DNA of 64,000 bases from a virus, in the IMG/VR virus record IMGVR_UViG_3300029605_000149, positions 7,564 to 71,563 of that record. One strand, 5' to 3'. The notes beneath the pieces are model-generated. The model saw only the letters and a list, made by a program, of their open reading frames with translations, was not told the origin of the DNA and did no database searches. The position numbers and the translations under genes were made by a program. This document shows positions 23,201 through 63,787 of this stretch, one piece after another. Position 1 is the first letter of the stretch; every line of letters begins with the position of its first letter.

Positions 23201-23696
23201 TTTTTGCAAGTACATCGGCAAAGTGCGTACTATCAGAAGCTTTAAGTCCAAATGCTGTAATTGCATCGGTGACAATATCTGAGGTTGTCGCAAGGTCAAG
23301 ACCGTCTGCAGCGGCAAGTGACATTATACCGTCAATACCGTTAAGCATTGATTTAGTATTCCAACCAGCCATTGCCATATATTGTAAAGCCTCGGCGGAT
23401 TCAGATGCAGAAAACTTAGTTTTAGCTCCCATTTCTTTGGCTTTGTCTGTAAGGCTTTGCAGGTCTTTTCCGCTTGCACCGCTGATAGCCGAAACCTTGG
23501 ACATAGCCGCCTCGAAAGATGAACCGACAGTTGCCGCTGCTGTTGCTCCTGCTCCAAGAGTTGTAGCTATACCAGCAAGCGTTGTTGTTATTGCAGACAC
23601 ACCTGTTTTGGCAAGTCCTTTTAATTTATCAATACCTATTCTAAAACCACCGGTATCAATTTTGGTGTCAATTTTAATAGAGCCATCGTATGCCAA
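20214..23696 (-). CDS. tail tape measure protein
   Basis: 1160 aa, Ala/Gly/Ser/Thr-rich N-terminus with TM-like segments, long coiled-coil region. Confidence 0.9.
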   Translation of the reverse strand: MAYDGSIKIDTKIDTGGFRIGIDKLKGLAKTGVSAITTTLAGIATTLGAGATAAATVGSSFEAAMSKVSAISGASGKDLQSLTDKAKEMGAKTKFSASESAEALQYMAMAGWNTKSMLNGIDGIMSLAAADGLDLATTSDIVTDAITAFGLKASDSTHFADVLAKTSSSANTNVSMLGESFKYVAPLAGAMNYSVEDVSVALGLMANASVKGSMAGTSLKTALSNLASPTKEMQKVMDEYKISMTDANGEALPLIDVIKELRTKFSGLSETEQTAAASTLFGKEAMSGMLAIINASDKDFNTLVKNIDNADGSAKAMAETMQNNLQGQITILKSGLEGLGIEIYESMSEPLTDAAKEAQNYVNRLTTAFTEGGLSGMIEEAGSIFGELATKAVEAAPKMIDAAMSFLQAFVNGIANNSSKLVKAAINIVKTLVKGISDRAPDLLSAAKSIVDALTKNLVKLLPKELQAPVKEAINTIKKSFENGGLKKAINTVKTILINLGKTITNIAKVVIPPLAKAIDLIADNLNILLPIVTTAITAWKAWKIISSITALVTQHAASVTAESLAEAASLGTITLKQIAVGALTGEITLATAAQYAWNMAMSLNPAVLILTGITALTAGIIAFSAANGDATQSTDDLASAEANLQSANDNLGSSYEDIGSKFGDFMNDIKNSGSIFDNFNESILISDDEKQKLSENMDNVQSEITEICKTASENRKELTGGEIQRLEDLFAKMHELADQELAIEEAKQGVVTTQAKALNEASDLSLEEYTQRAQKLTNSAEETRTAVIDKAYEQYTEEVALLDLRLKTDSDYSQKEHDADVKAAEASYQQAVSAANKEAGDTLKIIKDGYYNRAEALKSTTEDLKGLNQDESDAEQTHKQKLIDIASNYNTELYKISNKNLTDTQKSLMAGTALRIKEKAEEEENARYSKELGEIRNKQGKALSDEKYQDQLVAFLSLMGLYEQYTGETDTKAKGINSAFLGAFDNLDEDTKQSFIDAMEGAETGLSEKQDSLYSKASEISGSVINIFRKMFDEHSPSKVFKKIFGYTLEGGENGLDAEAPKLYKQADTVASTFTERMQAGVSADGLVSKMRAAVSAGQSMLRSKFTADVNHNVELMSEDNERKYSLKGDIHTSINIDGRETAVALTPYVSEELAWEDR

Positions 23697-32511: not shown

Positions 32512-33786
32512 TTATTTGTATTTAAACTCACGCTTTAGGACTGTATAAGCAAAATAGCGTATATCGTCCATTGCGTGGTCATTTTCTTTTACCACTTTAT
32601 CAACTTCGGCTTTTTCATCCCAGCGGTACATTCCGAACTCCTCTTGTGATGCCTTGCACTTAACGCCGATTTTAATTCTGCCGTCGGTCAGCATTTGGCT
32701 TGTAGTTCGGATACCGTTTATAACATCATTTTTCGCCGACTTAACAAAAAACTTGCCGTGTCTTTTGATCGTAGCTTTAAAGCTGGCGGCGGACGGGTCA
32801 ATTATCACACGCTCTATATAGCGGTCACCTGCGAGCTTATCAAGCTCTGCGTAATGCTCTTCATCGGTGCGTTGATAGCCTTCCTTGCGACTATTGTAGT
32901 AATATTCGTCAACTCTAATAGCTTCGTTGTCGGTCACACACCAAAGTCCCATTGAGCAAGGGTTAATAGTTCCATAGTCCATTGATATGTACCATGTGCC
33001 TACAAGCTCATCGGGATTGCCATCCCACAACTTATCCTTAATATGGTCATTGTAATCTTGGTAAACAAGACCCTCGGCAATAACCCACTCACCAAGGATA
33101 AAGCGGCGGTAAAATGTGCCTTGGTAAAGGCTGTAATACCGCTGTTTTACCTTGTCTGATAATGATAGGTTATCGTCCATTAAAAATTTAAGTCGCAAAG
33201 CGTGCTTTTCAGGAGCCTTTAAAACCCACTCACGATAAAACCAATGGTTAGGGTTATCGGGGTTGCAATTGAACCAAAACCTTGCACCCTCAACAGAGCA
33301 ACGGGCAAGAGCCTGCTCAACAAATGACCTCGGCATCAGAGCAACCTCATCGAAGAGGACGCCTGCAAGCGTAACGCCCTGAATTAAGTCCTGTGAGCTT
33401 TCGTCTTTACCGCCGAAAATGTAAAATGTGTTAGATTTGCCGTCTTTGCTGATTATCAGCAAGTTTTCCGACCGTTTATCCTTGATGTCATAGCGGTGTT
33501 TGAGCATATTGATGAGAGGCTTAATAACATTTCGCCTGCAAGAGCCTACGGTTTTGCCGCATATAGCAAAGTTACAGTCCGAGAACATCGCCATTGCCCA
33601 AAAGATAAAAGATATACTCATGCTTACAGTTTTTCCCGAACGAACAGATCCGTCTGCAATTATCGCATCATATTTATCCTTTATCCCGTCAACTTTCCAC
33701 CAGCTAAGTACTTTTAGCTGCTTTCTCGAAAAAGGCTTAAATTTCATCTTTAAAAGCCTCCTTGCCTGCACCTTCGAGTGCCTCAA
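32512..33786 (-). CDS. terminase large subunit
   Basis: Walker A ADGSVRSGKT near N-terminus, 424 aa. Confidence 0.85.
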   Translation of the reverse strand: MRHSKVQARRLLKMKFKPFSRKQLKVLSWWKVDGIKDKYDAIIADGSVRSGKTVSMSISFIFWAMAMFSDCNFAICGKTVGSCRRNVIKPLINMLKHRYDIKDKRSENLLIISKDGKSNTFYIFGGKDESSQDLIQGVTLAGVLFDEVALMPRSFVEQALARCSVEGARFWFNCNPDNPNHWFYREWVLKAPEKHALRLKFLMDDNLSLSDKVKQRYYSLYQGTFYRRFILGEWVIAEGLVYQDYNDHIKDKLWDGNPDELVGTWYISMDYGTINPCSMGLWCVTDNEAIRVDEYYYNSRKEGYQRTDEEHYAELDKLAGDRYIERVIIDPSAASFKATIKRHGKFFVKSAKNDVINGIRTTSQMLTDGRIKIGVKCKASQEEFGMYRWDEKAEVDKVVKENDHAMDDIRYFAYTVLKREFKYK

Positions 33787-39777: not shown

Positions 39778-41736
39778 TTATTCCTCCTTCTGTCGTTGTT
39801 CAAGATTTCTTATCATTTTTGCCTTATCTATCGTTACGATATTCGACTGACCAACTGCCATAGGCAACTGCTCTGCCGTTTCATCGGCACGGTGTACTGA
39901 TATAACCTTCGGATTGATTTCTTCGGCATTTGCTTTGTTTTCCTCAGCGGTTGCAAGCACAAGATTGAGTGCTGTTTCTTTGCCAAATGCTGTAATCTGA
40001 CTTGCCTTGAGTTCCTGTTTGGTGAGCTTTTCAAGGCTCTTAACTTTACGGAGTGCCTGAGCAACTGCATCTTTAGATGCTCCGTAGGCAAGGACTGCTT
40101 CATTGTCTGTTGGAGCGGTCATTATGTAGTTATCATCAAGGTCATATATTCTTACGGTTGATATATCTTCCGGGTCATATCGACAGTAAACCGATTCTCC
40201 AAAATGATTTAAAATAAGGTCATCATTGTAGTAATCAATTTTCTCGCATGCAACAGTAAGATGTACTCCACGCCTGCCGACTTTCTGACTTCTTGTGCTT
40301 CTCATTAACATTAAGTTAAGGTCAAGTTCTGCGGCGACTCGTTTTTCTTTAAGTTGTTCTCTGTAAACCTGCATTCGGCTTTTACCGCTGTCTGAGCTTA
40401 CCGCTCCGCTATATGGTTTTTCATTCATATAGTAGGTTAAAATGTCCTCAACTGCCTGAGTGAATTCATAATCCGTGGGTATGTTGTCGGTGTCCTTGAT
40501 TACCTTTTTAAGTCGTTCCGGTCGTTCGACTACATTACCGCCTGTATAAGTCGGAAACAGTCTTGAAAGTCGGTCTTTAACATCTCGAAATCGTCTTTCA
40601 ATGATCTTTGCCTTCGCATTTCGTACGATAGCATTTGTCATTTTTATGCCGAGTCTTTCAAACACAGGAGGTGGAGCAAATTTATCTTTTGTACTCTTCT
40701 TTTGCCTGTGACCTAAACCACCTACGTCGAAGGTAAGAAACTCACGACCATTATCAACATAAATGTTCTGCGGTATGCCGTATTTTACAATACCTTTCCT
40801 CAAGGCAATCAGTGTAGCTTGCGATGACGGTGCGTCTGTTACATAACACCCGGTGAATATTCCGCTGCGAGCGTCAAAAAATGCTGTGAGATAAAGCCTG
40901 TGCAGGTTACCTTTTTCACCTTTTGTCTGTACGTCAAAAGTATGATTGTCGGCAATCCACCATTCATTACTTACCATATCTTCATAGGTACGTCTGATAT
41001 ACGGAGCACACCTGTCCCTAAAGGCTTTCATACCTTGCCGTCCCATAATTTCAACAGGCTTAGGTATTGCCGTTTGTACTTTCCTGTAAAACGATGCATA
41101 AGCAGGGAGAGGTAACAGCTGTGGAGCTTCTCGCTTAATCCACATTTCGGTGTATTCATAGCACGCCTGTATAGGGTGCTGTGCCTCATCAAGATAAAAA
41201 CTTAAAAAGCATTGCCACACTTCTTCAGGAATTGACGATGTACCTTTTTTCCAACTTCCACGATTGTCAAGCAGTCCTGCAAGATCATCGGCTTTTAAAG
41301 CCTTTTTTTTCCGGTACAAAATTCCCTTCGATATGTTAAGGTCGGGATTAGCGACCTTTTGCAGTTGTACAAATTTTTCGGTTGCAGGTACTTTCTGTAA
41401 CTTTGATGTTGCACAATACTCATCCCAAGCATTAAGTATCCTTATCCATTCGGCAATCTCTTCACGCTGTACCGCCGAAAATTCATCAAATTCCTTGTGG
41501 GGTCGCTCCGTCTTGCGTTCGGGGAGCAAATCCTCAGGAATTGCTATTGCGTGCGATTTGTAGTATTTAAGCTGTTCCGAGTGGGATAGTTCATTTAAAG
41601 GTATCAAATATTTTTTGCGGTTGTTTTGGTTTATTGTTTCATCACCCTGAAGACTTCCATTGTTTATGAGCATTTTTACATATCGTTCAGAGCAACCTTT
41701 TATCCCAGCAACTTCCTTTGCCGTTAGATAAATCAA
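39778..41736 (-). CDS. MuA-like DDE transposase (rve/Mu transposase family)
   Basis: N-terminal HTH; catalytic triad candidates in WWIADNHTFD, IYVDNGREF and KIIERRFRD; 652 aa. Confidence 0.85.
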   Translation of the reverse strand: MIYLTAKEVAGIKGCSERYVKMLINNGSLQGDETINQNNRKKYLIPLNELSHSEQLKYYKSHAIAIPEDLLPERKTERPHKEFDEFSAVQREEIAEWIRILNAWDEYCATSKLQKVPATEKFVQLQKVANPDLNISKGILYRKKKALKADDLAGLLDNRGSWKKGTSSIPEEVWQCFLSFYLDEAQHPIQACYEYTEMWIKREAPQLLPLPAYASFYRKVQTAIPKPVEIMGRQGMKAFRDRCAPYIRRTYEDMVSNEWWIADNHTFDVQTKGEKGNLHRLYLTAFFDARSGIFTGCYVTDAPSSQATLIALRKGIVKYGIPQNIYVDNGREFLTFDVGGLGHRQKKSTKDKFAPPPVFERLGIKMTNAIVRNAKAKIIERRFRDVKDRLSRLFPTYTGGNVVERPERLKKVIKDTDNIPTDYEFTQAVEDILTYYMNEKPYSGAVSSDSGKSRMQVYREQLKEKRVAAELDLNLMLMRSTRSQKVGRRGVHLTVACEKIDYYNDDLILNHFGESVYCRYDPEDISTVRIYDLDDNYIMTAPTDNEAVLAYGASKDAVAQALRKVKSLEKLTKQELKASQITAFGKETALNLVLATAEENKANAEEINPKVISVHRADETAEQLPMAVGQSNIVTIDKAKMIRNLEQRQKEE

Positions 41737-45151: not shown

Positions 45152-46402
45152 ATGGATGACTATAATGATGCGGAACAATTAGCAGGTGTTGGTGGTTCTG
45201 CTTTAAGAGGTGCCGGGAAAATAGCAAATGCGGCAACAAGACGATTGCGGGAAAAGGCTATTAAAAAGGCGAAAAAGGAAAGTGCCGCTGCAATCAGAAA
45301 AGTTGCACATTTGGTTAAAATGGTTATAGCAGGTCTTATATCAATTTTAGGTCCTATCGGAATTATTGTGCTGAGTTTCGTAGTCATCATTTTTATGGCG
45401 TTTGGTGCGACAGCCGGAAGCAGTTCGAGTGCAAACGGAGTTTCTGTAGGCGGATCATCTCAATTTGTTCCACGATTAACCGCACCATCCACAAGCAGCA
45501 GATACTATTACAGTACAGATAATCCGTTTTATCCGGCATACGGTATGCCAAACTGTACGGCATATGCCTTCGGTAGAATTTACGAACTTAACGGTTCAAG
45601 ACCTAACCTATGCACAGGTAATGCAGAAATGTGGTATGACTATAACAAAAGCCATAACTATTACCCATACGGAAGCACGCCAAAACTTGGTGCTGTTGCA
45701 GTTTGGGTTCATCCGGGCGGAGGTCATGTTGCGGTTGTCGAAAAAATTGAAAACAATACAGTTACATATTCTAACTCAGCGTATAACGGTACTAATTTTT
45801 ATCTTAGTACTGCACCATTATCCGATCCGGGCAATGTTGGAGCAACTGATTGGACTTTACAGGGATATATATACGCATATACACCGCCTATCAGCAATAC
45901 AAGTTCCGGAATTGTTAATAATCTTTCTGCACCTCAGTTTGAAAGACAATTTGCCACATTTTTTGAAGCTAAGGGATTTAATAAGGCAATGATTTGTGGA
46001 ATGCTCGGTAATATTTTTAGGGAAACCAGCTATTTGCCTTCAAACTATTTTGCGGGCTATGTGCCTGATGCGTTTGGAGCAGTCGGAAATTCCGGTGGCA
46101 TATGCATGTGGTACGGAGATAACTGTACAAGATTTAAGCGAGACTGTCCGAATTGGGGAGTTGATGTAACTGCTCAGTTTGAGTATCTATATCAAACACT
46201 AATTAAAGACGGACAGGGAAGTTACAATGACAAATATTACTATTGGTGTACAGGATGTTTGTCAAGAATGCAAGCTGTTCCAAACACGAAAGACGGAGCT
46301 AGACAGGCGGCACGGATATTTCACGATTATTACGAACGGTCGGCAACCGGATCAGCAGACAGAATGGAATTTGCCGCAACGACTTGGGATAATTTAAGCT
46401 GA
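45152..46402 (+). CDS. CHAP-domain peptidoglycan hydrolase (VirB1-like lytic factor of T4SS)
   Basis: N-terminal TM; NCTAYAFGR (Cys) ... GGGHVAVV (His) CHAP signature; second C-terminal domain. Confidence 0.7.
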   Translation: MDDYNDAEQLAGVGGSALRGAGKIANAATRRLREKAIKKAKKESAAAIRKVAHLVKMVIAGLISILGPIGIIVLSFVVIIFMAFGATAGSSSSANGVSVGGSSQFVPRLTAPSTSSRYYYSTDNPFYPAYGMPNCTAYAFGRIYELNGSRPNLCTGNAEMWYDYNKSHNYYPYGSTPKLGAVAVWVHPGGGHVAVVEKIENNTVTYSNSAYNGTNFYLSTAPLSDPGNVGATDWTLQGYIYAYTPPISNTSSGIVNNLSAPQFERQFATFFEAKGFNKAMICGMLGNIFRETSYLPSNYFAGYVPDAFGAVGNSGGICMWYGDNCTRFKRDCPNWGVDVTAQFEYLYQTLIKDGQGSYNDKYYYWCTGCLSRMQAVPNTKDGARQAARIFHDYYERSATGSADRMEFAATTWDNLS

Positions 46403-54814: not shown

Positions 54815-55639
54815 ATGCATAAAAAGAAGAAATCTGTCGGTGATAATAAGAAAAGCATAATTGCAGTATTATTTATTGGTGCAGGATGTGCATTAGCAGC
54901 GGCAATTGCTTGTTCGTTTTTTTTGTCCAATTTATCCAATAATAATGGAGAGTCGGAATTTGAAAAAGCCAGAAGTATTACTGCAACAACATCATCAGTT
55001 CCGAGTAGTTCCGATGATAATTCCGATAATGTAAAATCTTCATCAGATAATCAAAAATCAAAGAGTACTGATAATTATGTTAATGACAATGATAGCAGTA
55101 AAATGACCGTTGATTCTCAAAAGCTGTATGAAGATAGTGTTGCATACAACCGAAAATTGAAATCAAATCAGAGCAACTTACTGACAAATGAGGAGTCATA
55201 CACATATTCAGCGTTAAAGTTAACTGATTATGGTATTACAAACGGCGTGTATGCTTACATAACTGCTGATTCAATTGGTCTTAATGTTCCTGTATACCTT
55301 GGTGCAAACAATAGTAATATGGCATATGGTGCGGCTCATCTATGCTATACTTCGTTGCCAACCGGCGGAAAGGATTCTAATGTGGTTTTGTCGGGACATA
55401 CAGGATATATCGGCAGATGGATTTTTGACAGCATTCCTTCGCTTAAAACAGGAGATACGGTAACTGTAAAAAACTACTGGGGCGATGTAAAATACAAAGT
55501 TGTCAGTAAAGTCACAAGATCTCCAAATGATGGACAAGATATGTACATAGATAAAGGAAAAGATAAATTAACATTAATAACCTGCGTATCGGATGGTAAA
55601 GGTGGATTTAATCGGTGCGTAGTAATTTGTGAAAGGTAA
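54815..55639 (+). CDS. sortase
   Basis: N-terminal TM; His in VLSGHTG; catalytic Cys in LTLITCVS (TLxTC). Confidence 0.85.
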   Translation: MHKKKKSVGDNKKSIIAVLFIGAGCALAAAIACSFFLSNLSNNNGESEFEKARSITATTSSVPSSSDDNSDNVKSSSDNQKSKSTDNYVNDNDSSKMTVDSQKLYEDSVAYNRKLKSNQSNLLTNEESYTYSALKLTDYGITNGVYAYITADSIGLNVPVYLGANNSNMAYGAAHLCYTSLPTGGKDSNVVLSGHTGYIGRWIFDSIPSLKTGDTVTVKNYWGDVKYKVVSKVTRSPNDGQDMYIDKGKDKLTLITCVSDGKGGFNRCVVICER

Positions 55640-55654
55640 AAAACGAGGTTAAAT

Positions 55655-56353
55655 ATGAATAATAATGATTATACAGTAGTACCGCTAAAAAAAGCGGTAG
55701 TAAATAAATATATTAATTTTGCAAAAAAACAATATGACGAAGATAATATCAAAAATCAGAAATTCATTAAGAATTTTAAATGGAAACTACTGGCGGTTCT
55801 GCTTTCAATTTTTCCTATGTCCTGCCTATCGGCAGCGGTAATTATGATGTTAATATGGAGTAATGACCTTGCATCACTTATTGCATTATCAGTACTTGCA
55901 ATAACTATAGTAAGTGTTGGAATATATTTGATTTCAAATGAGTTGTTATCATTACTGAAACGAAAAAAAGAAATTATAGCTAATAACAATAGTTTCTCAG
56001 ATTATTATGAGAATGAAGAGTGGATTAGTGATGAAGTGGGTATTGACGAGTATGTTAACATTCACCGAATAATCCAGTTGAGTCTGATGACAGACAACAG
56101 AGTTAAAAACAGAAACTTTGAACAGTTGATATTTGAAAAAATGGTAGGAAATCAAGCTGTTTTTAGATTGTATTACAGTTCTGAGGACCAACATAAATAT
56201 AACTATCTTTATATGTTAGAATCAGAAGTTCGGGATGATGTAGAAAAGGTAGAAATAGATCTCAATCGTAACAGAATAAGAATTCCTTGCAGAAATGACA
56301 GTTATTTAAAGGGAATCAATATAACAAAGAAAGAAATTTTTCAAACTGCATAG
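55655..56353 (+). CDS. hypothetical membrane protein
   Basis: Two TM helices. Confidence 0.4.
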   Translation: MNNNDYTVVPLKKAVVNKYINFAKKQYDEDNIKNQKFIKNFKWKLLAVLLSIFPMSCLSAAVIMMLIWSNDLASLIALSVLAITIVSVGIYLISNELLSLLKRKKEIIANNNSFSDYYENEEWISDEVGIDEYVNIHRIIQLSLMTDNRVKNRNFEQLIFEKMVGNQAVFRLYYSSEDQHKYNYLYMLESEVRDDVEKVEIDLNRNRIRIPCRNDSYLKGINITKKEIFQTA

Positions 56354-56367
56354 AAACACAAAAGCGG

Positions 56368-56400
56368 GTATGTGATTAAGACACATACCCGCTTTTAGTG
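56368..56400 (+). terminator. rho-independent terminator
   Basis: AAGCGGGTATGTG / CACATACCCGCTT 13-bp stem then TTTT. Confidence 0.65.
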
Positions 56401-57145
56401 AGAAAAGTATTAAGAAAAAAGTTTATTAAATTGTCAGTATTAAAGAAGCATGCATCATAATACGAGCAACTCGTATTAATTTAGATTTGAACTCGTTTAT
56501 TTCTAAATGAGCTACCCGTATATATGTGCATTGCTAAGTTAAATGCTTTATTATATTATATCACTAATATGTTGTAATGTCAATTAGAATATGAATAAAT
56601 TGAATAATTGAAGAATTGTCAGGTAGGAGAGAGTGCTATTTATTCAGTATTTGTATATGCACATAATCCTAATTTCACGCAGGGGGGAATATACACATAT
56701 GGGTATAAGCCTAAAAGTCGCTATAAATTGTCAGTTTTTGATTTTATGGTTGTTCGTCAGACTATTCCTCGCTTTTTCATTCAGAAGATTTTGCTTATCC
56801 TTGTTCAAATAAACTGCATATCGCTAAGACTCTTAATGTCGTATAACTTAAATAGTCACAATTTAAAAGGTATATACCTTTTTGTGGCGATGTTATCTTT
56901 ACTTATTCAATACTTATTCAATAAACACTCAAAATGTAAAATTGCAAATTCCTGTATCAATAAATGATTTTAAACATTTGAATATTTAATTCAATATTTA
57001 TTCGGACATTCTTCAATAATTAAACTCCTATATTTGTTTGGATGGTACCATACGGTACCGTCTAACGAATTATAAATATAAATGTTTGATTATAACAAAT
57101 TGACCTTCATTATTCATTTGAATGTTCATAATATTCAAATGTGCC

Positions 57146-57174
57146 TTGACATTATAAAAAACTACTGATATAAT
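57146..57174 (+). promoter_or_regulatory. consensus sigma-A-type promoter TTGACA-17-TATAAT
   Basis: Exact hexamers and 17-bp spacer read in sequence. Confidence 0.5.
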
Positions 57175-57399
57175 GTAATTACTGAAATGTGATATTTGAT
57201 GATACCAAATTTCATTGACTTTTTAAAAGTAGTTAGGTCAGAAAGTTCAAATCTTCTGAAGTATAAAAATTGACAGGATAAATTCTCATATACTTCTTCC
57301 CTCTCGGAGGAGTGCAGAGACTATTATTAACACCTGCGTGAAATCTATGTTTTGTGAAGTAATAAACCCAAAAACATCTATTTGAGAAAGGAAAATAAT

Positions 57400-57447
57400 T
57401 ATGACTACAAAAGATGAGATTATTAAACATGATATTAAAAAGGAGTA
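57400..57447 (+). CDS. 15-codon upstream ORF (MTTKDEIIKHDIKKE), candidate leader peptide
   Basis: Own RBS AAAGGA; its stop overlaps the RBS (GGAG) of the downstream gene. Confidence 0.35.
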
Positions 57448-57454
57448 AGGAATT

Positions 57455-58144
57455 ATGGCAAATTTCACACTGCGACCAATGACTGTTTCCGAACGCAAGT
57501 ACAGTTATGTACAAAGCCCTCAAATTCAAGGGCAGACCGGCAATATCGGTTATTTACGTGGTGATTTCGGCTCTAACGGCAACTGGTTTTACACCACTTG
57601 GTTTGATACCCGTTCACAATGGAAAAGTGATGAGTTTAAGCAAGACTTGGACGATGTAATCAACGCCTTGCGTTCACATAATTACGGATTACTCCGAGAC
57701 CGTGCCACTATGTACTCGGTTTGTCGGGAAAATAAGGACAGCGAAATGAAAGGTAACTACACAACTGAGTTCGGCTTTCGAGCAGATTCTGAGAAGTATG
57801 CATTCCTGCTTCGTTGTATACCTGTTCAAGGTGACTATAACTTCTACTGCTTTTGTTATGTGAGAAAATGGCTGGATAAGCATATAGAGGAAGCTAATCG
57901 GGACATTCGCTTTATTGACAGTCACTATAAAGAACTGTTCCGTATTCCGGACGGTGAGTACATCATTGTAACCGATCGTTACGGTAAGATGAAAAGCTAT
58001 CCATGCCGCTATATTGACGACTATCATTTGGAGGTCGGACGCAATCTCTTTCATATTTGCGAGTTTGCTGAGCGTATGGAGCAAGACTGCTGTACCTACC
58101 GCCCCGAAAGTGCCGCTGGATCCAAAAACTATGACGAAAGGTGA
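57455..58144 (+). CDS. hypothetical Cys/His-rich cytoplasmic protein, compositionally distinct (GC-richer) from surroundings
   Basis: 229 aa; visibly higher GC than flanks; stop overlaps next start (GGTGAATGTATATG). Confidence 0.5.
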   Translation: MANFTLRPMTVSERKYSYVQSPQIQGQTGNIGYLRGDFGSNGNWFYTTWFDTRSQWKSDEFKQDLDDVINALRSHNYGLLRDRATMYSVCRENKDSEMKGNYTTEFGFRADSEKYAFLLRCIPVQGDYNFYCFCYVRKWLDKHIEEANRDIRFIDSHYKELFRIPDGEYIIVTDRYGKMKSYPCRYIDDYHLEVGRNLFHICEFAERMEQDCCTYRPESAAGSKNYDER

Positions 58145-58768
58145 ATGTATATGAAAAAAGAAGATTTTTATAATACAAATAAAGATATGAATAACTTAAC
58201 CACTATGCTGATAGATTTACTTCTTAAAAGATTGCTTGAAGAGAGATACTCAGAGTTTTATACAGAAAGTCTTTCTGAAAGCAAACGGTATTACCATAAT
58301 CCGTTATTGGTCACTAAATATCTTAGATTTGAGTCAGTAATTAAGAGAGGAACCGCTTTATTGATTTTTATTGATTTATTGTTAGAAGTATTTGCTTTAT
58401 TAACCGGGGTTCTCTCTCCCACTTTTGCTTTAATCAGTTGTTGTGTGTTAATTATTTTGCTGTATCTTTGCCTTATTGCTACGATTGATTATGATAAGAA
58501 GAACCGTAAAATTGAATCGTTTATCATTTCCAAAAACTCAGACGGTTCGTTTGTCATAGCCGTTTTATATCGGCATAGGGAACAATTTGCAATTTACAGA
58601 ATAGAAAGTATTACCAATCTGAAAATTGAAAACAAGACAATAATCATTAAATTAAAAGGTTATTTCTTGTATAGTGATGATGAGAAATTTAATGATAACG
58701 GCAAAATAACATTGCCGGCTGTCTATGATGATGAATTAATTGATGATATAAATAAACTAAAGGGATGA
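58145..58768 (+). CDS. hypothetical membrane protein
   Basis: Two to three TM helices mid-protein; translationally coupled to upstream gene. Confidence 0.45.
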   Translation: MYMKKEDFYNTNKDMNNLTTMLIDLLLKRLLEERYSEFYTESLSESKRYYHNPLLVTKYLRFESVIKRGTALLIFIDLLLEVFALLTGVLSPTFALISCCVLIILLYLCLIATIDYDKKNRKIESFIISKNSDGSFVIAVLYRHREQFAIYRIESITNLKIENKTIIIKLKGYFLYSDDEKFNDNGKITLPAVYDDELIDDINKLKG

Positions 58769-58775
58769 TTATAAC

Positions 58776-59861
58776 ATGAAAAGTGAAACCGGATATGACG
58801 CCTATTTTGCAGGACAGCTCGACCTTGCCCCTATCGTTTTGAGGAAATACATAATTAACATGATTGCTATTGAAGGCAAGTCTATGGATACGGTTGTGAG
58901 TTATTTTGGCGATATTTTTTGGCTGTTTAGATATTTAGTTGCTTTAAAAGGTATTGAGATTACATATAAAGGTGATATTCTTTTACCGCATACACACGGA
59001 AATAATGACTACAACGAGATAATTAAGGCTGTATCTGATGTTATAGACACTGATTTCATTAGGAGTATCAGCCGTGATGATATTAAACAGTTTGTTATGT
59101 ATATGGCAAGGCGAAAAGTTAAAGCCAGCACACGAAACAGAAGATTATCAGCAATAAGAAGCTTTTTTGAATTTTGTTGCAATGATGTTCAAATTATTGA
59201 CTCCTCCCCTTGTCAAACTATTACCAATTCAAAAAAGGAAAAAAAGTTACCAAAGTACCTTACTCTTGAAGAATCAGAGAAACTCCTTGCAAGCGTTAAA
59301 GAAGGAAAAAATTATGACCGTAACTACTGCATGCTTACTCTGTTTCTTAATTGTGGTCTGCGTCTTACTGAACTTGTCGATATTGATATTTCGGACATCC
59401 AGAACAATACTCTTCGTATTATGGGTAAGGGTGCCAAGGAGCGTATCCTGCATTTGAATGAATCTTGCATGGTAGCACTTGAAAATTGGTTACAGGTAAG
59501 ATTATCAAATAAGTATTTTGTAAAAGATAAAAATGCTCTTTTTATTTCGGCGAACGAAGGTACTAGATTATCTCGCCGTGCTGTACAGCTTGTAGTATCC
59601 GAAACGCTCAAAGCAGCCGGACTTGACGGCAAAGGGTATTCGACTCATAAGCTTAGACATACAGCTGCAACTCTGATGTATCAATACGGTGATGTGGATG
59701 TCTTAACACTCAAGGAAGTGTTAGGACACGAAGAATTAAGCACAACGCAAATCTATACGCATATTGATAACAAACAAGTGCGTGAAGCACTTGAAAAAAA
59801 TCCCCTTGCACATAAAAATGTAGATTATATAGATGTTAACAATGATAAAAAAGGAGAATAA
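58776..59861 (+). CDS. tyrosine site-specific recombinase (XerC/D-like)
   Basis: C-terminal R...HKLRHTAAT...LGHEELSTTQIYTHI catalytic signature. Confidence 0.85.
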   Translation: MKSETGYDAYFAGQLDLAPIVLRKYIINMIAIEGKSMDTVVSYFGDIFWLFRYLVALKGIEITYKGDILLPHTHGNNDYNEIIKAVSDVIDTDFIRSISRDDIKQFVMYMARRKVKASTRNRRLSAIRSFFEFCCNDVQIIDSSPCQTITNSKKEKKLPKYLTLEESEKLLASVKEGKNYDRNYCMLTLFLNCGLRLTELVDIDISDIQNNTLRIMGKGAKERILHLNESCMVALENWLQVRLSNKYFVKDKNALFISANEGTRLSRRAVQLVVSETLKAAGLDGKGYSTHKLRHTAATLMYQYGDVDVLTLKEVLGHEELSTTQIYTHIDNKQVREALEKNPLAHKNVDYIDVNNDKKGE

Positions 59862-60618
59862 TATGAAAACTATATCTTTTTACAACATTAAAGGTGGAGT
59901 TGCAAAAACGACAAGTACTCTTGCGTTTGCACAAATACTTCACAACGATTACGGTAAGCGTGTGCTTGTATTTGATATTGACAAGCAGGCAAACTCAACC
60001 AAAACACTCGGCTGTTATGATGCAGACGGTCTTTCCTCTGCTGATTTACTTGTATCTAAGAAGAATATTGTCCGTGATGTTATCAAGCACAGCGAGTATG
60101 GTATTGATGTAATACCGGCAAATTACAACCTCATCAAGGCAAATAAGGATGTACTGTACGATGCTCTCCGTCCTCAGCAAACACGATTCAAGGCTCAGCT
60201 TGAGGAAGTTCAGAATGATTATGATTATTGTATTATTGATCATTCTATTGAAGATAATATGGCAGTTGTCAACGGTCTTGTTATTACTGACGATGTGCTT
60301 GTACCAATAAAGTTTGATAGATATGGTCTTGACGGTATGGAGTACGCTCTTGAAACGATTGAAAGTGTAAAGGTATTTAATCCTAATATTCAGCTCAAGG
60401 GTTGTTTTTTGACGATGTATGTTCGTTCCAATCTTTACAAGCAGGGCGAAATCAGCCTGAAAGATGCACTCGGACTAAAATTTCTTAAAACTACAATTTC
60501 TCAAACAGTTAAAGTCGGCGAAAGTACCTTTGATAAGCCTCTTTTGTCGTATGCACCTAAATGTAAAGCGGCTGATGATTATAAAAAACTCGTAGCAGAA
60601 TATCTTTCACTTGATTAA
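59833..60618 (+). CDS. parA: ParA/Soj-family partition ATPase
   Basis: Deviant Walker A IKGGVAKTTST. Confidence 0.85.
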   Translation: MLTMIKKENNMKTISFYNIKGGVAKTTSTLAFAQILHNDYGKRVLVFDIDKQANSTKTLGCYDADGLSSADLLVSKKNIVRDVIKHSEYGIDVIPANYNLIKANKDVLYDALRPQQTRFKAQLEEVQNDYDYCIIDHSIEDNMAVVNGLVITDDVLVPIKFDRYGLDGMEYALETIESVKVFNPNIQLKGCFLTMYVRSNLYKQGEISLKDALGLKFLKTTISQTVKVGESTFDKPLLSYAPKCKAADDYKKLVAEYLSLD

Positions 60619-60638
60619 ATAGCAGGAGGTAATTATTT

Positions 60639-61685
60639 ATGGCTTTTAAACTTGATTCTATTTTTAATTCTAAAACTCTTTCTCAGGCAAATGATTCATA
60701 TAAAGTACAATACATAGAAAGAAGCAAGATTATTCCGAATGAACACAATAAGGAAATTTATTCAACTGACAAAACTCTTTTACTATCCTATGGTATTGAA
60801 GATAAAGGCTTACTCGAACCTTTAATCGTCAAAAAAGATGACGAAGGTACATATACATTGTTGAGTGGTCACCGTAGATTAGCTGCTATTGAAATAATTT
60901 GCAAGCGAAATCCTGATAAGGCATCAGATTTTGAAGTTTTACCATGTATTATAAGAAATGACGACGATGACGAGGAAATTCTCATTGATGCCAATTTTTA
61001 TAATCGTGAAAAAACTGATGCTGAAAAAGCCAAAGAACTTGCAAAGAAAAAGGAAAAACTTGAACAAAGAAAAGCTAACGGTGAAAAAATTAACGGACAG
61101 TTAATTAAACTCATAGCTGAAGATATGAATATAAGTGTTCATCAAGCCAAAAAACTTAATTCAATCAACTTGAATGCTACAGATTCTGTTAAAGATGCGT
61201 TTGATGCAGGAGAGATTACAGTAGAAACCGCTTATCATTTGTCAAAAGCTGATGAGAAAACACAAGATGATTTTATCCAAAATGCAAGAGATAACGATAA
61301 GCCGATTGCTACACATGAGGTAAAAGAAGCAGTCGCAGCGGCAAAGCCTAAAATGTCTGTAATGCCAAAGACTCCAATATCAGATAACGAAAATGCCTCA
61401 AAGCCTACTGTTGGCACTATGTCTGACAATGACGAATATCTTTCATCAGAAGATGACAAACTGAAAAATGTACTTGATGAATGTCAAAAAAAGTTTGTTT
61501 CAGATACAGTTATTCCCGAAGCATCAATTTCAGAGGTAGACGATCTTTGCAAAGAAATTGCAAAAATAATGAGATTGTTTGCATCTGAAAAAGAAATTAC
61601 CTTAAATAAAAACGAGGTTTCGGAAATCAGAAATATATTTGAAAAGGTGCTTTCAAGGCTAACAAATCAGTCAGACACCGTTTGA
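60639..61685 (+). CDS. parB: ParB-like partition protein
   Basis: ParB N-terminal box LLSGHRRLAA; follows parA. Confidence 0.8.
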   Translation: MAFKLDSIFNSKTLSQANDSYKVQYIERSKIIPNEHNKEIYSTDKTLLLSYGIEDKGLLEPLIVKKDDEGTYTLLSGHRRLAAIEIICKRNPDKASDFEVLPCIIRNDDDDEEILIDANFYNREKTDAEKAKELAKKKEKLEQRKANGEKINGQLIKLIAEDMNISVHQAKKLNSINLNATDSVKDAFDAGEITVETAYHLSKADEKTQDDFIQNARDNDKPIATHEVKEAVAAAKPKMSVMPKTPISDNENASKPTVGTMSDNDEYLSSEDDKLKNVLDECQKKFVSDTVIPEASISEVDDLCKEIAKIMRLFASEKEITLNKNEVSEIRNIFEKVLSRLTNQSDTV

Positions 61686-61814
61686 CAAAAAATTAAGAAC
61701 ACTATATAATGTAAAATAGTGATAATAATGCATTTACACTATCCTTTTACACAGCGGTACTACTTTTCATTGTTGTACCGCTGAATGTGTTCTTGTTGGA
61801 CGGAGAGATTGAAT

Positions 61815-62828
61815 ATGAAAAATGAGAAAAAAATCAAGGTGTCCGAAGCTGTAAGATTATTTGCCCATGTTACCGGTAAAGATCCTAATGCTTTTTACAA
61901 ACAAATTGAGCGTAACAGATATACTACACTCGAAACTATAGACGGTGTACAATATTTAAGTTTAGATGAATTATATGCAAATCTTCCTATTAATGAGGAT
62001 GGGGAACATCTCTTGCCGGTTAATACTGTGGCAAAAAATAAAAATATCAATGTTTATGAACTTAAAATGCATATTAACAAAGGGACAATTCCTGCTAAAA
62101 TAATTGGATATCGCACTTACATCAATCCAAAAGATGTTGACTTTTTAATACACTTGCATGATGTCGCTAATTCGCCCGACTATATATCTGTCAAAAAATT
62201 TGCTATTGAAAACAACTTGAATCCATATACTATAATTGCATATGCTACCAAGGGTAAGTTTAAAACTGCTGTAAAAGCTAAAAATCAATGGTTTGTGTCA
62301 AAAGATGATCCTTTTATTAAAGAAATATTAGATATGTCATTACCTGAGGGATATGTATCTATAGAAGAGTACGCTAATCTTCATAATATAGACAGGATGA
62401 AAGTAGTTAATGATGTACGCAGAGGATTATATAAAACAAGTATACTAATCAATCTTCCGGCTAGAAAAGAAAAATGGTTTCTTCATAAAGATGATGTGAG
62501 TGTAATAGATTCATTAACTGAAGTATCAGATGAAAATTTTCTTACCGTTGATGAACTCTCAGAAAAGTTTAATATGAAGAAATCAACGATATTACACAAG
62601 ATTCATAATGGACAGTATCCATCTGCAAAAAAGATTGGTAGCAAGTGGTATGTTAATAGCGAAGAAGTAAAGCCGTTGTATTATGGGCTTGTACGAATTA
62701 AAACATATTCTGATAACCATAATGTATCAGTTGGTATTATCAGGAAAAGAATACATGACGGACTTGTCGAATCTGCCATAAGAGTTGATGGTGTGTGGTA
62801 CCTTGATGACAATGAAATACTTACATAA
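61815..62828 (+). CDS. protein with four to five tandem excisionase/MerR-type HTH (HTH_17-like) repeats
   Basis: Repeated pattern (L)SVDEL...nm...TI...I..G.lp..KIG..WYV..dev; likely start MKNEKK with GGAGAG RBS. Confidence 0.5.
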   Translation: MKNEKKIKVSEAVRLFAHVTGKDPNAFYKQIERNRYTTLETIDGVQYLSLDELYANLPINEDGEHLLPVNTVAKNKNINVYELKMHINKGTIPAKIIGYRTYINPKDVDFLIHLHDVANSPDYISVKKFAIENNLNPYTIIAYATKGKFKTAVKAKNQWFVSKDDPFIKEILDMSLPEGYVSIEEYANLHNIDRMKVVNDVRRGLYKTSILINLPARKEKWFLHKDDVSVIDSLTEVSDENFLTVDELSEKFNMKKSTILHKIHNGQYPSAKKIGSKWYVNSEEVKPLYYGLVRIKTYSDNHNVSVGIIRKRIHDGLVESAIRVDGVWYLDDNEILT

Positions 62829-62901
62829 TTTAACATAGCCTAAGCTATGTAAATACCTAAAAAAAGCTTTCACAAAATTTTGATGAAAGCTTTTTTAAGT
62901 A

Positions 62902-62930
62902 TTGACAAAATAAGTAATAATGGCTATAAT
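62902..62930 (+). promoter_or_regulatory. consensus promoter TTGACA-17-TATAAT
   Basis: Exact hexamers; downstream GTAATTA shared with the promoter at 57146. Confidence 0.5.
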
Positions 62931-63175: not shown

Positions 63176-63787
63176 ATGGTATTAAAGTATAAAGATGGTG
63201 ATTTGATGAATGAGAAAAAAATCGTTCTTAACGAAGCTCAAAAAATGTTAGTAGAAAAAAATCTATCTATTGTTCAGATAGTTATCAATAAGTTTATGCG
63301 TAACATTCAAGGAGATAATATCACTCCTGATTATAGCAAAGAAGATGCAATTCAGGATGGTTATTTGGCACTTTGCAAGGCAGCATTTACTTTTGATTAT
63401 GGAAAAAATATTCCGTTTGAAGGATATGCAACTACTGTTGTACATAATTATGTTTATTCTCAGATGCAGAAGTATTTCAAAAAGAAAGAAAGTTCTTTAG
63501 ATGATATTTTAAATGCTTTTGTTAGAGAAGAATGTGATGAATTATTCTGCTGTGAAACTAAAGAATTTCTTGCAACTGTTAATCGCCTAATCAACGAAAG
63601 AGAACATACTTACAATGCTAAAGTTCCTCATGCATATGATGTATTTAAAATGAGAACTGTACATGGATTAAAAAATAAAGATATTGCTCAAATACTGAAC
63701 ATAAGCGTATCTGATGTGTCATATAAATATACTCTTGCTAAATCAGACATCAGACGCTATGCTTCGATAGCAAATATTGCTTGCTAA
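63176..63787 (+). CDS. sigma-70 family RNA polymerase sigma factor (regions 2 and 4)
   Basis: Region 2-like DAIQDGYLALCKAAFTFD...FEGYATTVVHNYV; region 4 HTH NKDIAQILNISVSDVS. Confidence 0.75.
   Translation: MVLKYKDGDLMNEKKIVLNEAQKMLVEKNLSIVQIVINKFMRNIQGDNITPDYSKEDAIQDGYLALCKAAFTFDYGKNIPFEGYATTVVHNYVYSQMQKYFKKKESSLDDILNAFVREECDELFCCETKEFLATVNRLINEREHTYNAKVPHAYDVFKMRTVHGLKNKDIAQILNISVSDVSYKYTLAKSDIRRYASIANIAC

What the first reader, a model, noticed from the sequence alone, without database searches (positions are those of the whole stretch)
57146..58768. Compositionally foreign two-gene cassette behind a consensus promoter and a 15-codon leader ORF
A perfect TTGACA-17-TATAAT promoter (57146-57174) precedes a 225-nt leader. 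The leader contains a uORF (MTTKDEIIKHDIKKE) with its own RBS, and its stop overlaps the GGAG of the main gene. That arrangement is typical of translational-attenuation control of inducible cargo genes. The 229-aa product is Cys/His-rich and visibly GC-richer than all neighbours. It is translationally coupled (TGAATGTATATG) to a 207-aa membrane protein of normal composition. No family is recognisable to me. This may be an uncharacterised accessory, defence or resistance-type cassette sitting just upstream of the recombinase.
Basis: partly seen in the sequence, partly recalled or inferred. Interest (0 to 1): 0.55.

Follow-up and report, generated by a model that had tools for sequence, protein, structure and literature searches.

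The report
Borrowed conjugative-element gene behind deletion scar
The GC-rich gene is a stand-alone copy of a very common but unnamed protein family of gut-bacterial conjugative elements, dropped into a variable slot at the head of a maintenance operon in a Ruminococcus bromii mobile element, and the "leader ORF" in front of it is the leftover of deleted genes, not a regulatory device.

Summary

- **Promoter and operon.** The perfect promoter at 57146-57174 is conserved. It heads one tight operon: leader, variable accessory slot, gene 2 (205-aa two-TM protein), Xer-like recombinase, ParA, ParB.
- **What is foreign.** Only gene 1 (229 aa, GC 0.44 against a 0.35 backbone) is foreign. Gene 2 is a low-GC backbone gene.
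- **The uORF.** The 15-codon uORF is a deletion scar. Sister elements carry a 91-183-92-aa gene array at that spot. The uORF joins the first 4 codons of the 91-aa gene to an internal piece of the 92-aa gene. One variant has a different 19-codon scar, and others have no uORF. No RBS-sequestering RNA structure exists, so translational attenuation is not supported.
- **Gene 1 family.** It is huge (about 2,600 clusters at 50% identity) and matches no Pfam, NCBIfam, PHROG or PADLOC model. Its normal home is ICEs of Lachnospiraceae and Oscillospiraceae. In 75 of 80 such loci it lies just upstream of the giant SNF2/methylase polyvalent protein.
- **Fusions.** Its two modules occur fused to ArdA, DUF3846, YodL, DUF3849, DUF4313, DUF4314 and LPD25.
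- **Likely role.** An establishment or anti-defence effector. This is inferred; the biochemistry is unknown.

The parts
57044..57059 (.). GGTACC-ATAC-GGTACC near-palindrome about 90 bp upstream of the -35. Candidate operator or centromere-like site.
   Evidence: Read directly. In L020 it is the perfect 16-bp palindrome GGTACCGTACGGTACC, conserved against a ~78% identity background. The function is inferred.
57116..57140 (.). 9-bp inverted repeat CATTTGAAT / ATTCAAATG ending 5 bp before the -35. Candidate repressor operator.
   Evidence: Sequence. A related 13-nt arm pair, 56974-56986 / 57130-57142, is 100% complementary (I17). The function is inferred.
57146..57174 (+). Consensus sigma-70/SigA-type promoter, TTGACA-17-TATAAT, with a TG extended -10.
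   Evidence: 12/12; 4 perfect sites in the window against 0.02 expected. Hexamers, TG and spacer length are unchanged in L017, L019 and L020. A perfect TTGACA-N17-TATAAT lies within 260 nt upstream of the leader block in all 12 metagenome loci that hold that much upstream sequence.
57175..57400 (+). 5' untranslated leader of ~220 nt. It contains a block (about 57305-57365, CTCGGAGGAG...CACCTGCGTGAAATCTATGTTTTGTGAAGTAA) that is nearly invariant across sister elements.
   Evidence: Alignment. The exact 32-mer was found in 14 metagenome contigs. No Rfam family matches. Folding is no better than shuffles. The role of the block is unexplained.
57401..57448 (+). 15-codon uORF (MTTKDEIIKHDIKKE*). It is a deletion scar: the start of a lost 91-aa gene fused to an internal fragment of a lost 92-aa gene.
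   Evidence: L019, L110 and L114 keep the 91-183-92-aa array at this RBS and ATG. L017, L018, L101 and L109 have a different 19-codon scar (MTTTDEIIKHDIKFITMID*). L020 has a 175-aa gene instead.
57455..58144 (+). Gene 1, 229 aa: a horizontally acquired solo copy of an unnamed two-module family. The N module is ~1-138 and the C module ~150-217. The family is associated with ICE polyvalent proteins.
   Evidence: GC. Family size. Synteny with the polyvalent protein in 75 of 80 loci. Fusions to ArdA, DUF3846, YodL, DUF3849, DUF4313, DUF4314 and LPD25. AF2 model pLDDT 79.7. No known family.
58151..58768 (+). Gene 2, 205 aa (207 aa if started at 58145): a low-GC backbone protein with an N-terminal helix, two TM helices (~63-85 and 90-117) and a C-terminal beta-rich domain.
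   Evidence: Hydropathy. AF2 secondary structure (pLDDT only 60). The family is small, 59 proteins. It is present in all sister elements whether or not gene 1 is there, and in a different ICE behind an RNase_T-family gene.
58776..59861 (+). Xer-like tyrosine recombinase, starting 7 nt after gene 2 in the same operon.
   Evidence: Pfam Phage_integrase 6e-37. NCBIfam XerC 206 bits and XerD 192 bits, both below the equivalog cut-offs.
59863..60618 (+). ParA-type partition ATPase, next gene in the operon, one base after the recombinase stop (59861).
   Evidence: Pfam AAA_31 and CbiA. Gene calls in L001-L006.
60639..61685 (+). ParB-like protein, last gene before the next consensus promoter at 61682.
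   Evidence: Pfam ParB_N. Next promoter.

Best explanation
**Setting (shown).** The region is the 5' end of a maintenance operon of a conjugative element integrated in Ruminococcus bromii.
- A conserved consensus promoter (57146-57174) and a conserved ~220-nt leader run without a terminator through a variable accessory-gene slot.
- They continue into gene 2 (2-TM protein), an Xer-like recombinase, ParA and ParB.
- Palindromes next to the -35 suggest the promoter is repressed by an element-encoded protein. This is inferred.

**The slot is eroding by deletion (shown).**
- The fullest version holds four genes: 91, 183, 92 and 229 aa.
- In the window's version the first three have been deleted at short sequence identities.
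- What remains is a 15-codon chimeric ORF that keeps the first gene's RBS and ATG and ends in the old intergenic spacer on gene 1's Shine-Dalgarno.
- The uORF is therefore a scar. At most it passes ribosomes on to gene 1 by termination-reinitiation (inferred).

**Gene 1 is the only imported gene (shown).**
- It comes from the GC-richer ICEs of Lachnospiraceae and Oscillospiraceae.
- There, the family sits in a fixed module: adhesin, three small genes, gene 1, a 68-aa gene, then the giant SNF2/methylase polyvalent protein.
- Its two modules (N ~1-138, C ~150-217) also occur, shuffled and duplicated, inside polyvalent proteins next to ArdA, YodL, DUF3846, DUF3849, DUF4313, DUF4314 and LPD25.

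**Function (inferred, not shown).** Gene 1 most likely encodes a cytoplasmic, probably non-catalytic, binding protein. It would act for the mobile element early after entry into a new host, in establishment or anti-defence.
For: **Operon**
- Intergenic gaps are 6, 7, 1 and 20 nt, with no convincing terminator between 57174 and 61685.
- The promoter is more than chance and is conserved.

**Scar**
- blastn breakpoints are.
- Census of 14 independent metagenome loci:
  - 8 have the window-type scar with intact gene 1.
  - 2 have the 19-codon scar with internally deleted gene 1.
  - 4 have the full array.
- There is no RNA structure beyond shuffles and no Rfam hit.

**Import**
- Gene 1 has GC 0.441 and GC3 0.465, against a backbone of 0.347.
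- The other slot genes and gene 2 have GC 0.28-0.36.
- Homologues have GC 0.48-0.53, matching their own loci.
- A phage-labelled contig matches gene 1 alone at 80% DNA identity.

**Family context**
- Counts among 80 genome loci:
  - polyvalent protein downstream on the same strand: 75
  - 68-aa gene: 76
  - adhesin: 67
- The ParA-ParB to polyvalent layout is seen.
- Fusions are shown.
- Iyer et al. 2017 (PMC5512222) describe solo versions of polyvalent-protein domains and an early-invasion role.
- PMC12084326 reports monodomain relatives in variable regions of Faecalibacterium ICEs.

**Host.** RefSeq names for both proteins are 'hypothetical protein [Ruminococcus bromii]'.
Against: - No biochemical function is shown.
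- Guilt by association with ArdA and polyvalent proteins does not prove an anti-defence role. YodL, a frequent partner, is thought to act on the cytoskeleton instead (PMC5512222).
- The relaxase and oriT of the window's element were not located, so it is unknown whether gene 1 lies in a leading region here.
- The window's element carries no polyvalent protein within the 64 kb.
- Some sister elements have lost or truncated gene 1 (L017, L020), so it is dispensable for the element.
- Transcription from the promoter and the operon's extent are predicted, not measured.
Confidence: 0.6

Rival explanations
1. Translational attenuation. Ribosome stalling on the 15-codon leader peptide would remodel the mRNA and expose gene 1's RBS, making the cargo inducible as in erm and cat genes.
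For: The uORF has a usable RBS, and its stop overlaps gene 1's Shine-Dalgarno region. The uORF is identical in the 6 near-identical loci L001-L006 and in 8 metagenome loci.
Against: - The uORF is a chimera of two deleted genes.
- It is absent from L019, L020, L110 and L114, and different in L017, L018, L101 and L109.
- The loci that share it are ~99% identical overall, so they give no independent evidence of conservation.
- No alternative hairpins exist: local folds are -4.6 to -10.4 kcal/mol, z -0.09 to -0.52.
- The downstream gene belongs to no resistance family.
Confidence: 0.04
2. Gene 1 and gene 2 form a two-component defence or abortive-infection system, with a cytoplasmic sensor and a membrane effector, carried as cargo.
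For: The two genes are tightly spaced, 6 nt apart. Gene 2 is a 2-TM protein with allelic mosaicism and a short, weak PADLOC match to an AbiEii model (19 bits, E = 1.3e-4).
Against: - The two genes do not travel together. Gene 2 follows a 92-aa gene in L020 and an RNase_T-family gene in L014-16, with no gene 1.
- In the 80 genome loci gene 1 keeps a fixed neighbourhood (68-aa gene in 76, polyvalent protein in 75), and tblastn with gene 2 finds no copy in any of them.
- Gene 1 has no PADLOC hit.
- Gene 1's fusion partners (ArdA, LPD25, YodL) are counter-defence or establishment domains of invading elements.
- The two genes differ in composition, so they have different origins.
Confidence: 0.05
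3. Gene 1 is a cytoskeleton- or toxin-binding protein of the CbeA/YeeU/YfjZ (type IV antitoxin) kind. It would modulate host cell division or shape rather than immunity.
Against: - There is no sequence match to any Pfam family, including the CbeA antitoxin family.
- No CbtA-like toxin gene is adjacent.
- Foldseek finds nothing.
Confidence: 0.1
4. The slot is an integron-like cassette array serviced by the adjacent tyrosine recombinase, and gene 1 is a cassette.
For: Gene content between a fixed promoter and leader and a tyrosine recombinase is variable. The recombinase has a weak integron-integrase NCBIfam hit (95 bits).
Against: - The variants differ by nested deletions with junctions inside coding sequence, not by whole cassettes.
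- Genes are 6-23 nt apart, with no attC-like inverted repeats at the boundaries.
- The recombinase matches XerC and XerD far better (206 and 192 bits) than integron integrase.
- It lies downstream and co-oriented, and is followed by parAB.
Confidence: 0.03

Closest known systems
Solo ('monodomain') relatives of polyvalent-protein domains in Firmicutes conjugative elements (Iyer et al. 2017, PMC5512222; Faecalibacterium ICEs, PMC12084326)
   Same: - Small proteins encoded in variable regions of ICEs.
- Their domains recur inside giant multidomain polyvalent proteins.
- Gene 1's modules are found fused to ArdA, YodL, DUF3846, DUF3849, DUF4313, DUF4314 and LPD25.
- The solo gene sits next to the SNF2/methylase polyvalent protein in 75 of 80 loci.
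   Different: - The family matches none of the LPD or other Pfam models, so it is an undescribed family.
- In the window it has left its usual ICE module. It sits alone in a lower-GC element, at the head of a xer-parAB operon.
Leading-region anti-defence islands of conjugative plasmids (Samuel et al. 2024, PMC11541004)
   Same: Tightly packed, variable sets of small uncharacterised genes on conjugative elements, associated with ArdA-type functions and strong promoters.
   Different: - oriT and the relaxase were not located here, so a leading-region position is unproven.
- The promoter is an ordinary double-stranded consensus promoter, not a single-strand promoter.
- No anti-defence activity has been tested.
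erm/cat-type leader-peptide translational attenuators
   Same: A short ORF with its own RBS immediately upstream of, and overlapping the RBS region of, an accessory gene.
   Different: - The peptide is not conserved.
- No alternative stem-loops exist.
- The downstream gene is not a resistance determinant.
- The ORF's origin as a deletion scar is traceable.
YfjZ / YeeU (CbeA-family) antitoxins of E. coli cryptic prophages
   Different: - No sequence similarity.
- No partner toxin.
- A different size, with an extra C module.
- The similarity is within the range of generic alpha/beta sandwiches.

Membership tests
Leader-peptide translational attenuation (erm/cat type) | Leader peptide conserved among related elements | tested here: not met
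   It is absent from L019, L020, L110 and L114. A different 19-codon version is in L017, L018, L101 and L109. It is identical only in ~99%-identical copies.
Leader-peptide translational attenuation (erm/cat type) | Alternative mRNA hairpins that sequester the RBS of the regulated gene | tested here: not met
   Folds of 57375-57480, 57395-57470, 57300-57400 and 57181-57460 are no more stable than shuffles: z -0.52, -0.09, -0.23 and +0.97.
Leader-peptide translational attenuation (erm/cat type) | Regulated gene is a resistance determinant (rRNA methylase, acetyltransferase, efflux) | tested here: not met
   No Pfam or NCBIfam hit for gene 1.
Leader-peptide translational attenuation (erm/cat type) | Induction by a ribosome-targeting drug | not testable with these tools
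   Needs reporter assays.
Polyvalent-protein-associated domains of conjugative elements (sensu Iyer et al. 2017) | The domain occurs inside multidomain polyvalent proteins with other such domains | tested here: met
   - P0208: ArdA + gene-1 domain (46% identity, residues 140-368) + DUF3846 + YodL.
- P0304 and P0320: DUF3849 (plus DUF4314 in P0320) + C module + two N modules.
- P0199: DUF4314 + gene 1.
- P0204: DUF4313 + gene 1.
- Sister-clade hits carry PF12960, PF14192, PF14190, PF18840 (LPD25) and PF07275.
Polyvalent-protein-associated domains of conjugative elements (sensu Iyer et al. 2017) | Solo versions encoded in the same elements, near the polyvalent gene | tested here: met
   In 75 of 80 genome loci the polyvalent protein lies downstream on the same strand, at a median offset of 1.7 kb. 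See also L007-L013.
Polyvalent-protein-associated domains of conjugative elements (sensu Iyer et al. 2017) | Match to one of the named families (LPD1-40, ArdC-N, YodL and others) in Pfam | tested here: not met
   No Pfam hit at E <= 0.1 for the window protein. No recurrent hit among 38 members at E <= 1.
Polyvalent-protein-associated domains of conjugative elements (sensu Iyer et al. 2017) | Acts early in the recipient after transfer | not testable with these tools
   Needs conjugation and expression experiments.
ArdA-type anti-restriction DNA mimics | Sequence match to ArdA (PF07275) and a strongly acidic surface | tested here: not met
   No PF07275 hit in gene 1. pI is 6.0, with 35 D+E against 32 K+R. 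ArdA appears only as a fusion partner.
Known anti-phage defence systems (PADLOC-DB 2.0) | Match of either protein to a defence-system model, with the system's partner genes present | tested here: not met
   Gene 1 has no hit. Gene 2 has only a 57-residue, 19-bit match to one AbiEii model, with no AbiEi partner.
CbeA/YeeU/YfjZ type IV antitoxins | Fold match | tested here: inconclusive
CbeA/YeeU/YfjZ type IV antitoxins | Sequence family membership and an adjacent CbtA-like toxin | tested here: not met
   No Pfam hit for gene 1 or for its neighbours, gene 2 and the 232-aa protein.
Integron cassette array | attC-like recombination sites bounding each cassette, and an IntI-type integrase divergent from the array | tested here: not met
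   - Genes are 6-23 nt apart with no boundary hairpins.
- Variant junctions lie inside coding sequence.
- The recombinase scores XerC 206 bits against integron integrase 95 bits, and is co-oriented downstream.

The most novel reading that the evidence does not exclude
The gene-1 family would be a new, very widespread class of establishment or anti-defence effector of gut Clostridia conjugative elements.
- It is a two-module binding protein, absent from Pfam, with ~2,600 clusters at 50% identity and single 90% clusters of more than 10,000 sequences.
- It would neutralise a recipient defence or hijack a host structure such as the MreB/FtsZ cytoskeleton, in line with its YodL partners and YfjZ-like N module.
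- Its capture by an R. bromii element under a consensus promoter would be a natural 'minimal' test case of the solo protein.
Probability: 0.3. Interest if true: 0.6.

Novelty: new member of a known kind. Interest (0 to 1): 0.35.

Why it matters
- **A gap in the databases.** A protein family found in thousands of human-gut ICEs, including elements in Clostridioides difficile and Ruminococcus bromii records, has no name, no Pfam model and no known function.
- **Where it acts.** It sits at the heart of the module that conjugative elements use to establish themselves in new hosts. Knowing what it does would help explain gene flow among gut Firmicutes.
- **A usable test case.** The window offers a clean natural experiment. 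The same element backbone exists with the gene intact, with it internally deleted, and without it.
- **A caution for sequence reading.** A short ORF with a good RBS overlapping the next gene's Shine-Dalgarno looked like an attenuator. Comparison with sister elements showed it to be the stump of deleted genes.

Tried and rejected
**Leader and RNA**
- Rfam at permissive E-values over 56300-59000 gave nothing relevant to the leader.
- RNA folding of the leader and uORF gave no structure beyond shuffles.
- ARAGORN found no tRNA or tmRNA.

**Gene 1 and gene 2 sequence searches**
- Pfam, NCBIfam, PHROGs and PADLOC gave no family.
- PDB sequence profiles for both proteins gave nothing.

**Structure**
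- Foldseek against PDB and BFVD gave nothing at E <= 0.001.
- afdb50 was not available.
- The AF2 model of gene 2 has pLDDT 60, too poor for a fold search.

**DNA similarity**
- Megablast of 56300-59900 found no plasmid.
- It found one phage-labelled 4.2-kb contig that matches gene 1 only.

**Ideas tested and dropped**
- Gene 2 and the upstream 232-aa 2-TM protein are not paralogues.
- The other slot genes (91, 183, 92, 175 aa) did not come from the ICE module. They share no similarity with it and are low in GC.
- An integron-like cassette array (see rivals).
- The divergent small RNA as an antisense regulator of the leader. The shared 11-mer (AGTTCAAATCT) is identical in the two transcripts, not complementary, and the repeat finder reported no direct repeat (the arrangement that would let the two transcripts pair) between the sRNA region and the leader.
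- An obligatory zinc site formed by the conserved Cys and His.

**Literature.** No paper mentions the partner DUFs together, or R. bromii ICEs.
Full report

Yes. The + strand carries TTGACA-17-TATAAT at 57146-57174 with a TG extended -10 (12/12 matches). A search for the exact pattern finds 4 sites in the 64-kb window against 0.02 expected from dinucleotide shuffles. All four lie between 56.5 and 63 kb, in front of plausible transcription units.

The other features also check out:
- The uORF is at 57401-57448 (MTTKDEIIKHDIKKE*), with an AAAGGA Shine-Dalgarno 8 nt upstream.
- Its TAA follows directly on the AAGGAG (57440-57445) that serves gene 1, whose ATG is at 57455.
- Gene 1 (57455-58144, 229 aa) has GC 0.441 and GC3 0.465. 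The element backbone averages 0.347 (sd 0.034), and no 690-nt backbone window reaches gene 1's value.
- Gene 1's stop abuts ATG 58145. ATG 58151 is better spaced from the GGTGA Shine-Dalgarno and is the start usually called, giving 205 aa.

Two small corrections apply. The protein is Cys-rich (8 Cys) but not His-rich (5 His). The Mu-like prophage elsewhere in the window has comparable GC.

**2. What is the surrounding element?**

The window is a conjugative-element backbone:
- Rep_3 initiator at 2438-3634
- TraG-like P-loop ATPase at 10576-12621
- CHAP/lysozyme protein at 45152-46402
- sortase at 54815-55639

It is interrupted at about 13-43 kb by a Mu-like prophage with a Mu transposase, terminase, portal and tape measure.

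The exact gene-1 protein is on record in 2,750 blocks of the assembly collection, on contigs up to 2.4 Mb and always in the same synteny. RefSeq names both proteins 'hypothetical protein [Ruminococcus bromii]'. The element is therefore a prevalent integrated element of a common human-gut species.

Downstream of gene 1 the genes are packed with gaps of 6, 7, 1 and 20 nt. The order is gene 2, an Xer-like tyrosine recombinase, ParA and ParB, with no convincing terminator. The promoter thus heads a maintenance operon, not a two-gene cassette.

**3. The uORF is a deletion scar.**

Gene 2 homologues led to sister elements with the same backbone. blastn against them and inspection of the junctions show that the stretch between the leader and gene 2 is a variable slot:

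| Variant | Loci | Slot content |
|---|---|---|
| Full array | L019, L110, L114 (partial: L103, L104) | 91-aa, 183-aa, 92-aa genes, then gene 1 |
| 175-aa type | L020 | 175-aa gene and the 92-aa gene, no gene 1 |
| 19-codon scar | L017, L018, L101, L109 | short ORF MTTTDEIIKHDIKFITMID*, then gene 1 with an in-frame internal deletion (82 aa; window 57648-58079 missing) |
| Window type | window, L001-L006 and 8 metagenome loci | 15-codon ORF, then intact gene 1 |

The window uORF can be read off the full array:
- ATGACTACAAAA is the start of the 91-aa gene, with the same RBS.
- GATGAGATTATTAAACATGATATTAA is an internal piece of the 92-aa gene (…S-T-[A/D]-EIIKHDIKF…).
- The frame then runs into the old 92-aa/gene-1 spacer, AAAAAGGAGTAA.

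A census of 14 independent metagenome contigs that contain an invariant 32-mer of the leader gave 8 window-type, 2 with the 19-codon scar, and 4 full arrays. The peptide is therefore not conserved.

The RNA around it also lacks the structure that attenuation needs. Folds of 57375-57480, 57395-57470, 57300-57400 and the whole leader have z-scores of -0.52, -0.09, -0.23 and +0.97 against shuffles. No Rfam family matches.

What the scar may still do, by inference, is load ribosomes that terminate on gene 1's Shine-Dalgarno and reinitiate 6 nt downstream.

**4. Only gene 1 is foreign; gene 2 is backbone.**

- The other slot genes and gene 2 have GC 0.28-0.36.
- Gene 2 belongs to a small family of 59 proteins at 68-99% identity.
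- Gene 2 is present in every sister element whether or not gene 1 is there.
- In a different ICE-like element (L014-16) it follows an RNase_T-family gene.
- tblastn with gene 2 found no copy in any of the 80 genome loci that carry gene-1 homologues, where gene 1 keeps a different, fixed set of neighbours.

The two genes are therefore not a functional pair.

Gene 2 has an N-terminal helix, two TM helices (~63-85 and 90-117) and a beta-rich C-terminal domain followed by a helix. The model is poor (pLDDT 60) and nothing matches it. Its alleles are mosaics of two TM types and two C-domain types.

**5. What gene 1 is.**

The family is very large:
- more than 2,834 clusters at 90% identity
- 2,588 representatives at 50% identity with E <= 0.001
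- single clusters of 10,016 and 7,207 sequences

It has no Pfam, NCBIfam, PHROG or PADLOC model, and sources call it 'hypothetical protein'. Homologues occur in Lachnospiraceae, Oscillospiraceae, Ruminococcaceae and a Clostridioides difficile record, often in several copies per genome. Their GC is 0.48-0.53, equal to that of their loci. The window copy therefore looks like a partly ameliorated import.

The synteny is strongly conserved. Counts among the 80 genome loci:

| Neighbour of the gene-1 homologue | Loci (of 80) |
|---|---|
| Giant SNF2 / LPD25 / methylase polyvalent protein, downstream, same strand (median 1.7 kb) | 75 |
| 68-aa gene immediately after | 76 |
| ~1,400-aa adhesin, upstream | 67 |
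| Each of three small genes (100, 90 and 201 aa) | 57-61 |

The whole module lies after ParA-ParB.

The protein consists of two modules that shuffle independently. In P0320 and P0304 the order is DUF3849 (plus DUF4314 in P0320), then the C module, then two N modules. In the window protein the order is N then C. Fusions recur with:
- ArdA + DUF3846 + YodL (P0208; 46% identity over the whole gene-1 length)
- DUF4314 (P0199)
- DUF4313 (P0204)
- in a sister clade, PF12960, PF14192, PF14190, LPD25 and ArdA

This is the behaviour Iyer et al. (PMC5512222) describe for domains of 'polyvalent proteins' and their solo versions. They argue that these act together early in invasion. PMC12084326 reports the same kind of monodomain relatives in variable regions of Faecalibacterium ICEs.

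**6. Structure.**

AlphaFold2 on a 38-sequence alignment gives a usable model (pLDDT 79.7, pTM 0.72). It shows an alpha/beta N module, a low-confidence linker (~150-168) and a small beta-rich C module ending in a helix.
- Longin, roadblock and PAS-like domains score at the same level.
- Foldseek finds nothing significant in PDB or BFVD.

Six Cys/His positions are invariant among close relatives. Several are replaced in divergent members, so a universal metal site is doubtful.

**7. Most likely mechanism.**

Shown:
- a conserved strong promoter
- a conserved leader
- a tight operon
- a decaying accessory slot
- a single imported gene whose family belongs to the ICE polyvalent-protein module

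Inferred:
- The promoter is probably controlled by an element-encoded DNA-binding protein. A 9-bp inverted repeat abuts the -35, and a 16-bp palindrome lies 90 bp upstream and is conserved in L020.
- Gene 1's product is probably a cytoplasmic binding protein that serves the element during establishment in a new host, as an anti-defence or host-manipulation factor.

I give the overall account 0.6. The architectural and evolutionary part is near 0.9, and the functional class about 0.5. Rivals are scored as follows:

| Rival | Confidence |
|---|---|
| Attenuation | 0.04 |
| Two-gene defence system | 0.05 |
| Integron-like cassette | 0.03 |
| CbeA-like cytoskeleton or toxin binder | 0.1 |

**8. 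Novelty and verdict.**

The finding is an ordinary kind of thing: an accessory gene of a conjugative element in a variable slot. It involves an undescribed but extremely common family, so I class it as a 'new member of a known kind'. The regulatory idea that made it attractive does not survive comparison with sister elements. Interest is 0.35. If the family proves to be a new anti-defence or establishment effector (probability ~0.3), it would deserve about 0.6.

Noticed in passing
window 56359-56583 (- strand): A second perfect consensus promoter (56583..56555, -) fires away from the gene-1 promoter. It leads into a ~190-nt transcript ending at a 15-bp GC-rich terminator hairpin (56397..56359). 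The transcript folds at -59 kcal/mol, z = -8.1 against shuffles. Its first ~80 nt are almost invariant, and much of the next ~40 nt as well, in L020, where flanking DNA is ~78% identical. No Rfam family, no tRNA or tmRNA, no convincing ORF. It is a candidate small RNA of the element.
   Followed up: partly
window 56555-62930: All four perfect TTGACA-N17-TATAAT sites of the window (0.02 expected) cluster here: 56555 (-), 57146 (+), 61682 (+, before the 347-aa HTH_17 protein) and 62902 (+, before a sigma-70-family factor at 63176-63787). The element seems to use consensus promoters for its regulatory and maintenance genes.
   Followed up: partly
window 57305-57365: This block of the 5' leader (CTCGGAGGAG...TAACACCTGCGTGAAATCTATGTTTTGTGAAGTAA) is nearly 100% conserved in L020 against a ~78% background, and ends exactly where the variable slot begins. 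It has no significant RNA structure and no known motif. Its function is unexplained.
   Followed up: partly
window ~13000-43000 (- strand): A Mu-like transposable prophage is inserted in the conjugative backbone. It carries a Mu transposase (39778-41736), terminase (32512-33786), SPP1-type portal (31078-32496), minor capsid protein 2 (29288-31078), tape measure (20214-23696) and a BppU/GDSL tail protein (15337-17355). GC is ~0.41 against 0.35.
   Followed up: no
window 58151-58768 and alignment A3: Gene 2 alleles are mosaics. Two sequence types of the TM region and two types of the C-terminal domain occur in all combinations among otherwise similar elements. This suggests recombination or diversifying selection on this membrane protein.
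   Followed up: no
L017/L018 5746-5994; L101, L109: In some sister elements gene 1 carries an in-frame internal deletion (residues ~65-208 lost, 82 aa left). L020 lacks gene 1 altogether. The gene is dispensable for the element.
   Followed up: yes
proteins P0007, P0012, P0020 and others (alignment A1, columns 230-320): About a third of the close homologues are ~312 aa. They carry a conserved ~80-residue C-terminal extension (PLPPMCYS.LPSTGE.I.I.R..KGYT...GVSKAQEQAMLAGSMFGWD.PAAKPKNYDENG) that also has no Pfam match. The window copy lacks it.
   Followed up: no
phage record MT839472.1, positions 989-1647: A 4.2-kb 'Bacteriophage sp.' contig from human faeces matches gene 1 alone at 80% DNA identity (window 57441-58099). 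Neither the leader nor gene 2 matches. This fits gene 1 moving as a single-gene module.
   Followed up: no
L014-L016 5111-6618: In a different ICE-like element (SSB, ParA, ParB, and a 2,745- or 2,824-aa polyvalent protein), a gene 2 homologue with 79% DNA identity follows a 288-aa RNase_T-family gene, with no recombinase after it. Gene 2 is therefore itself exchanged between elements.
   Followed up: partly
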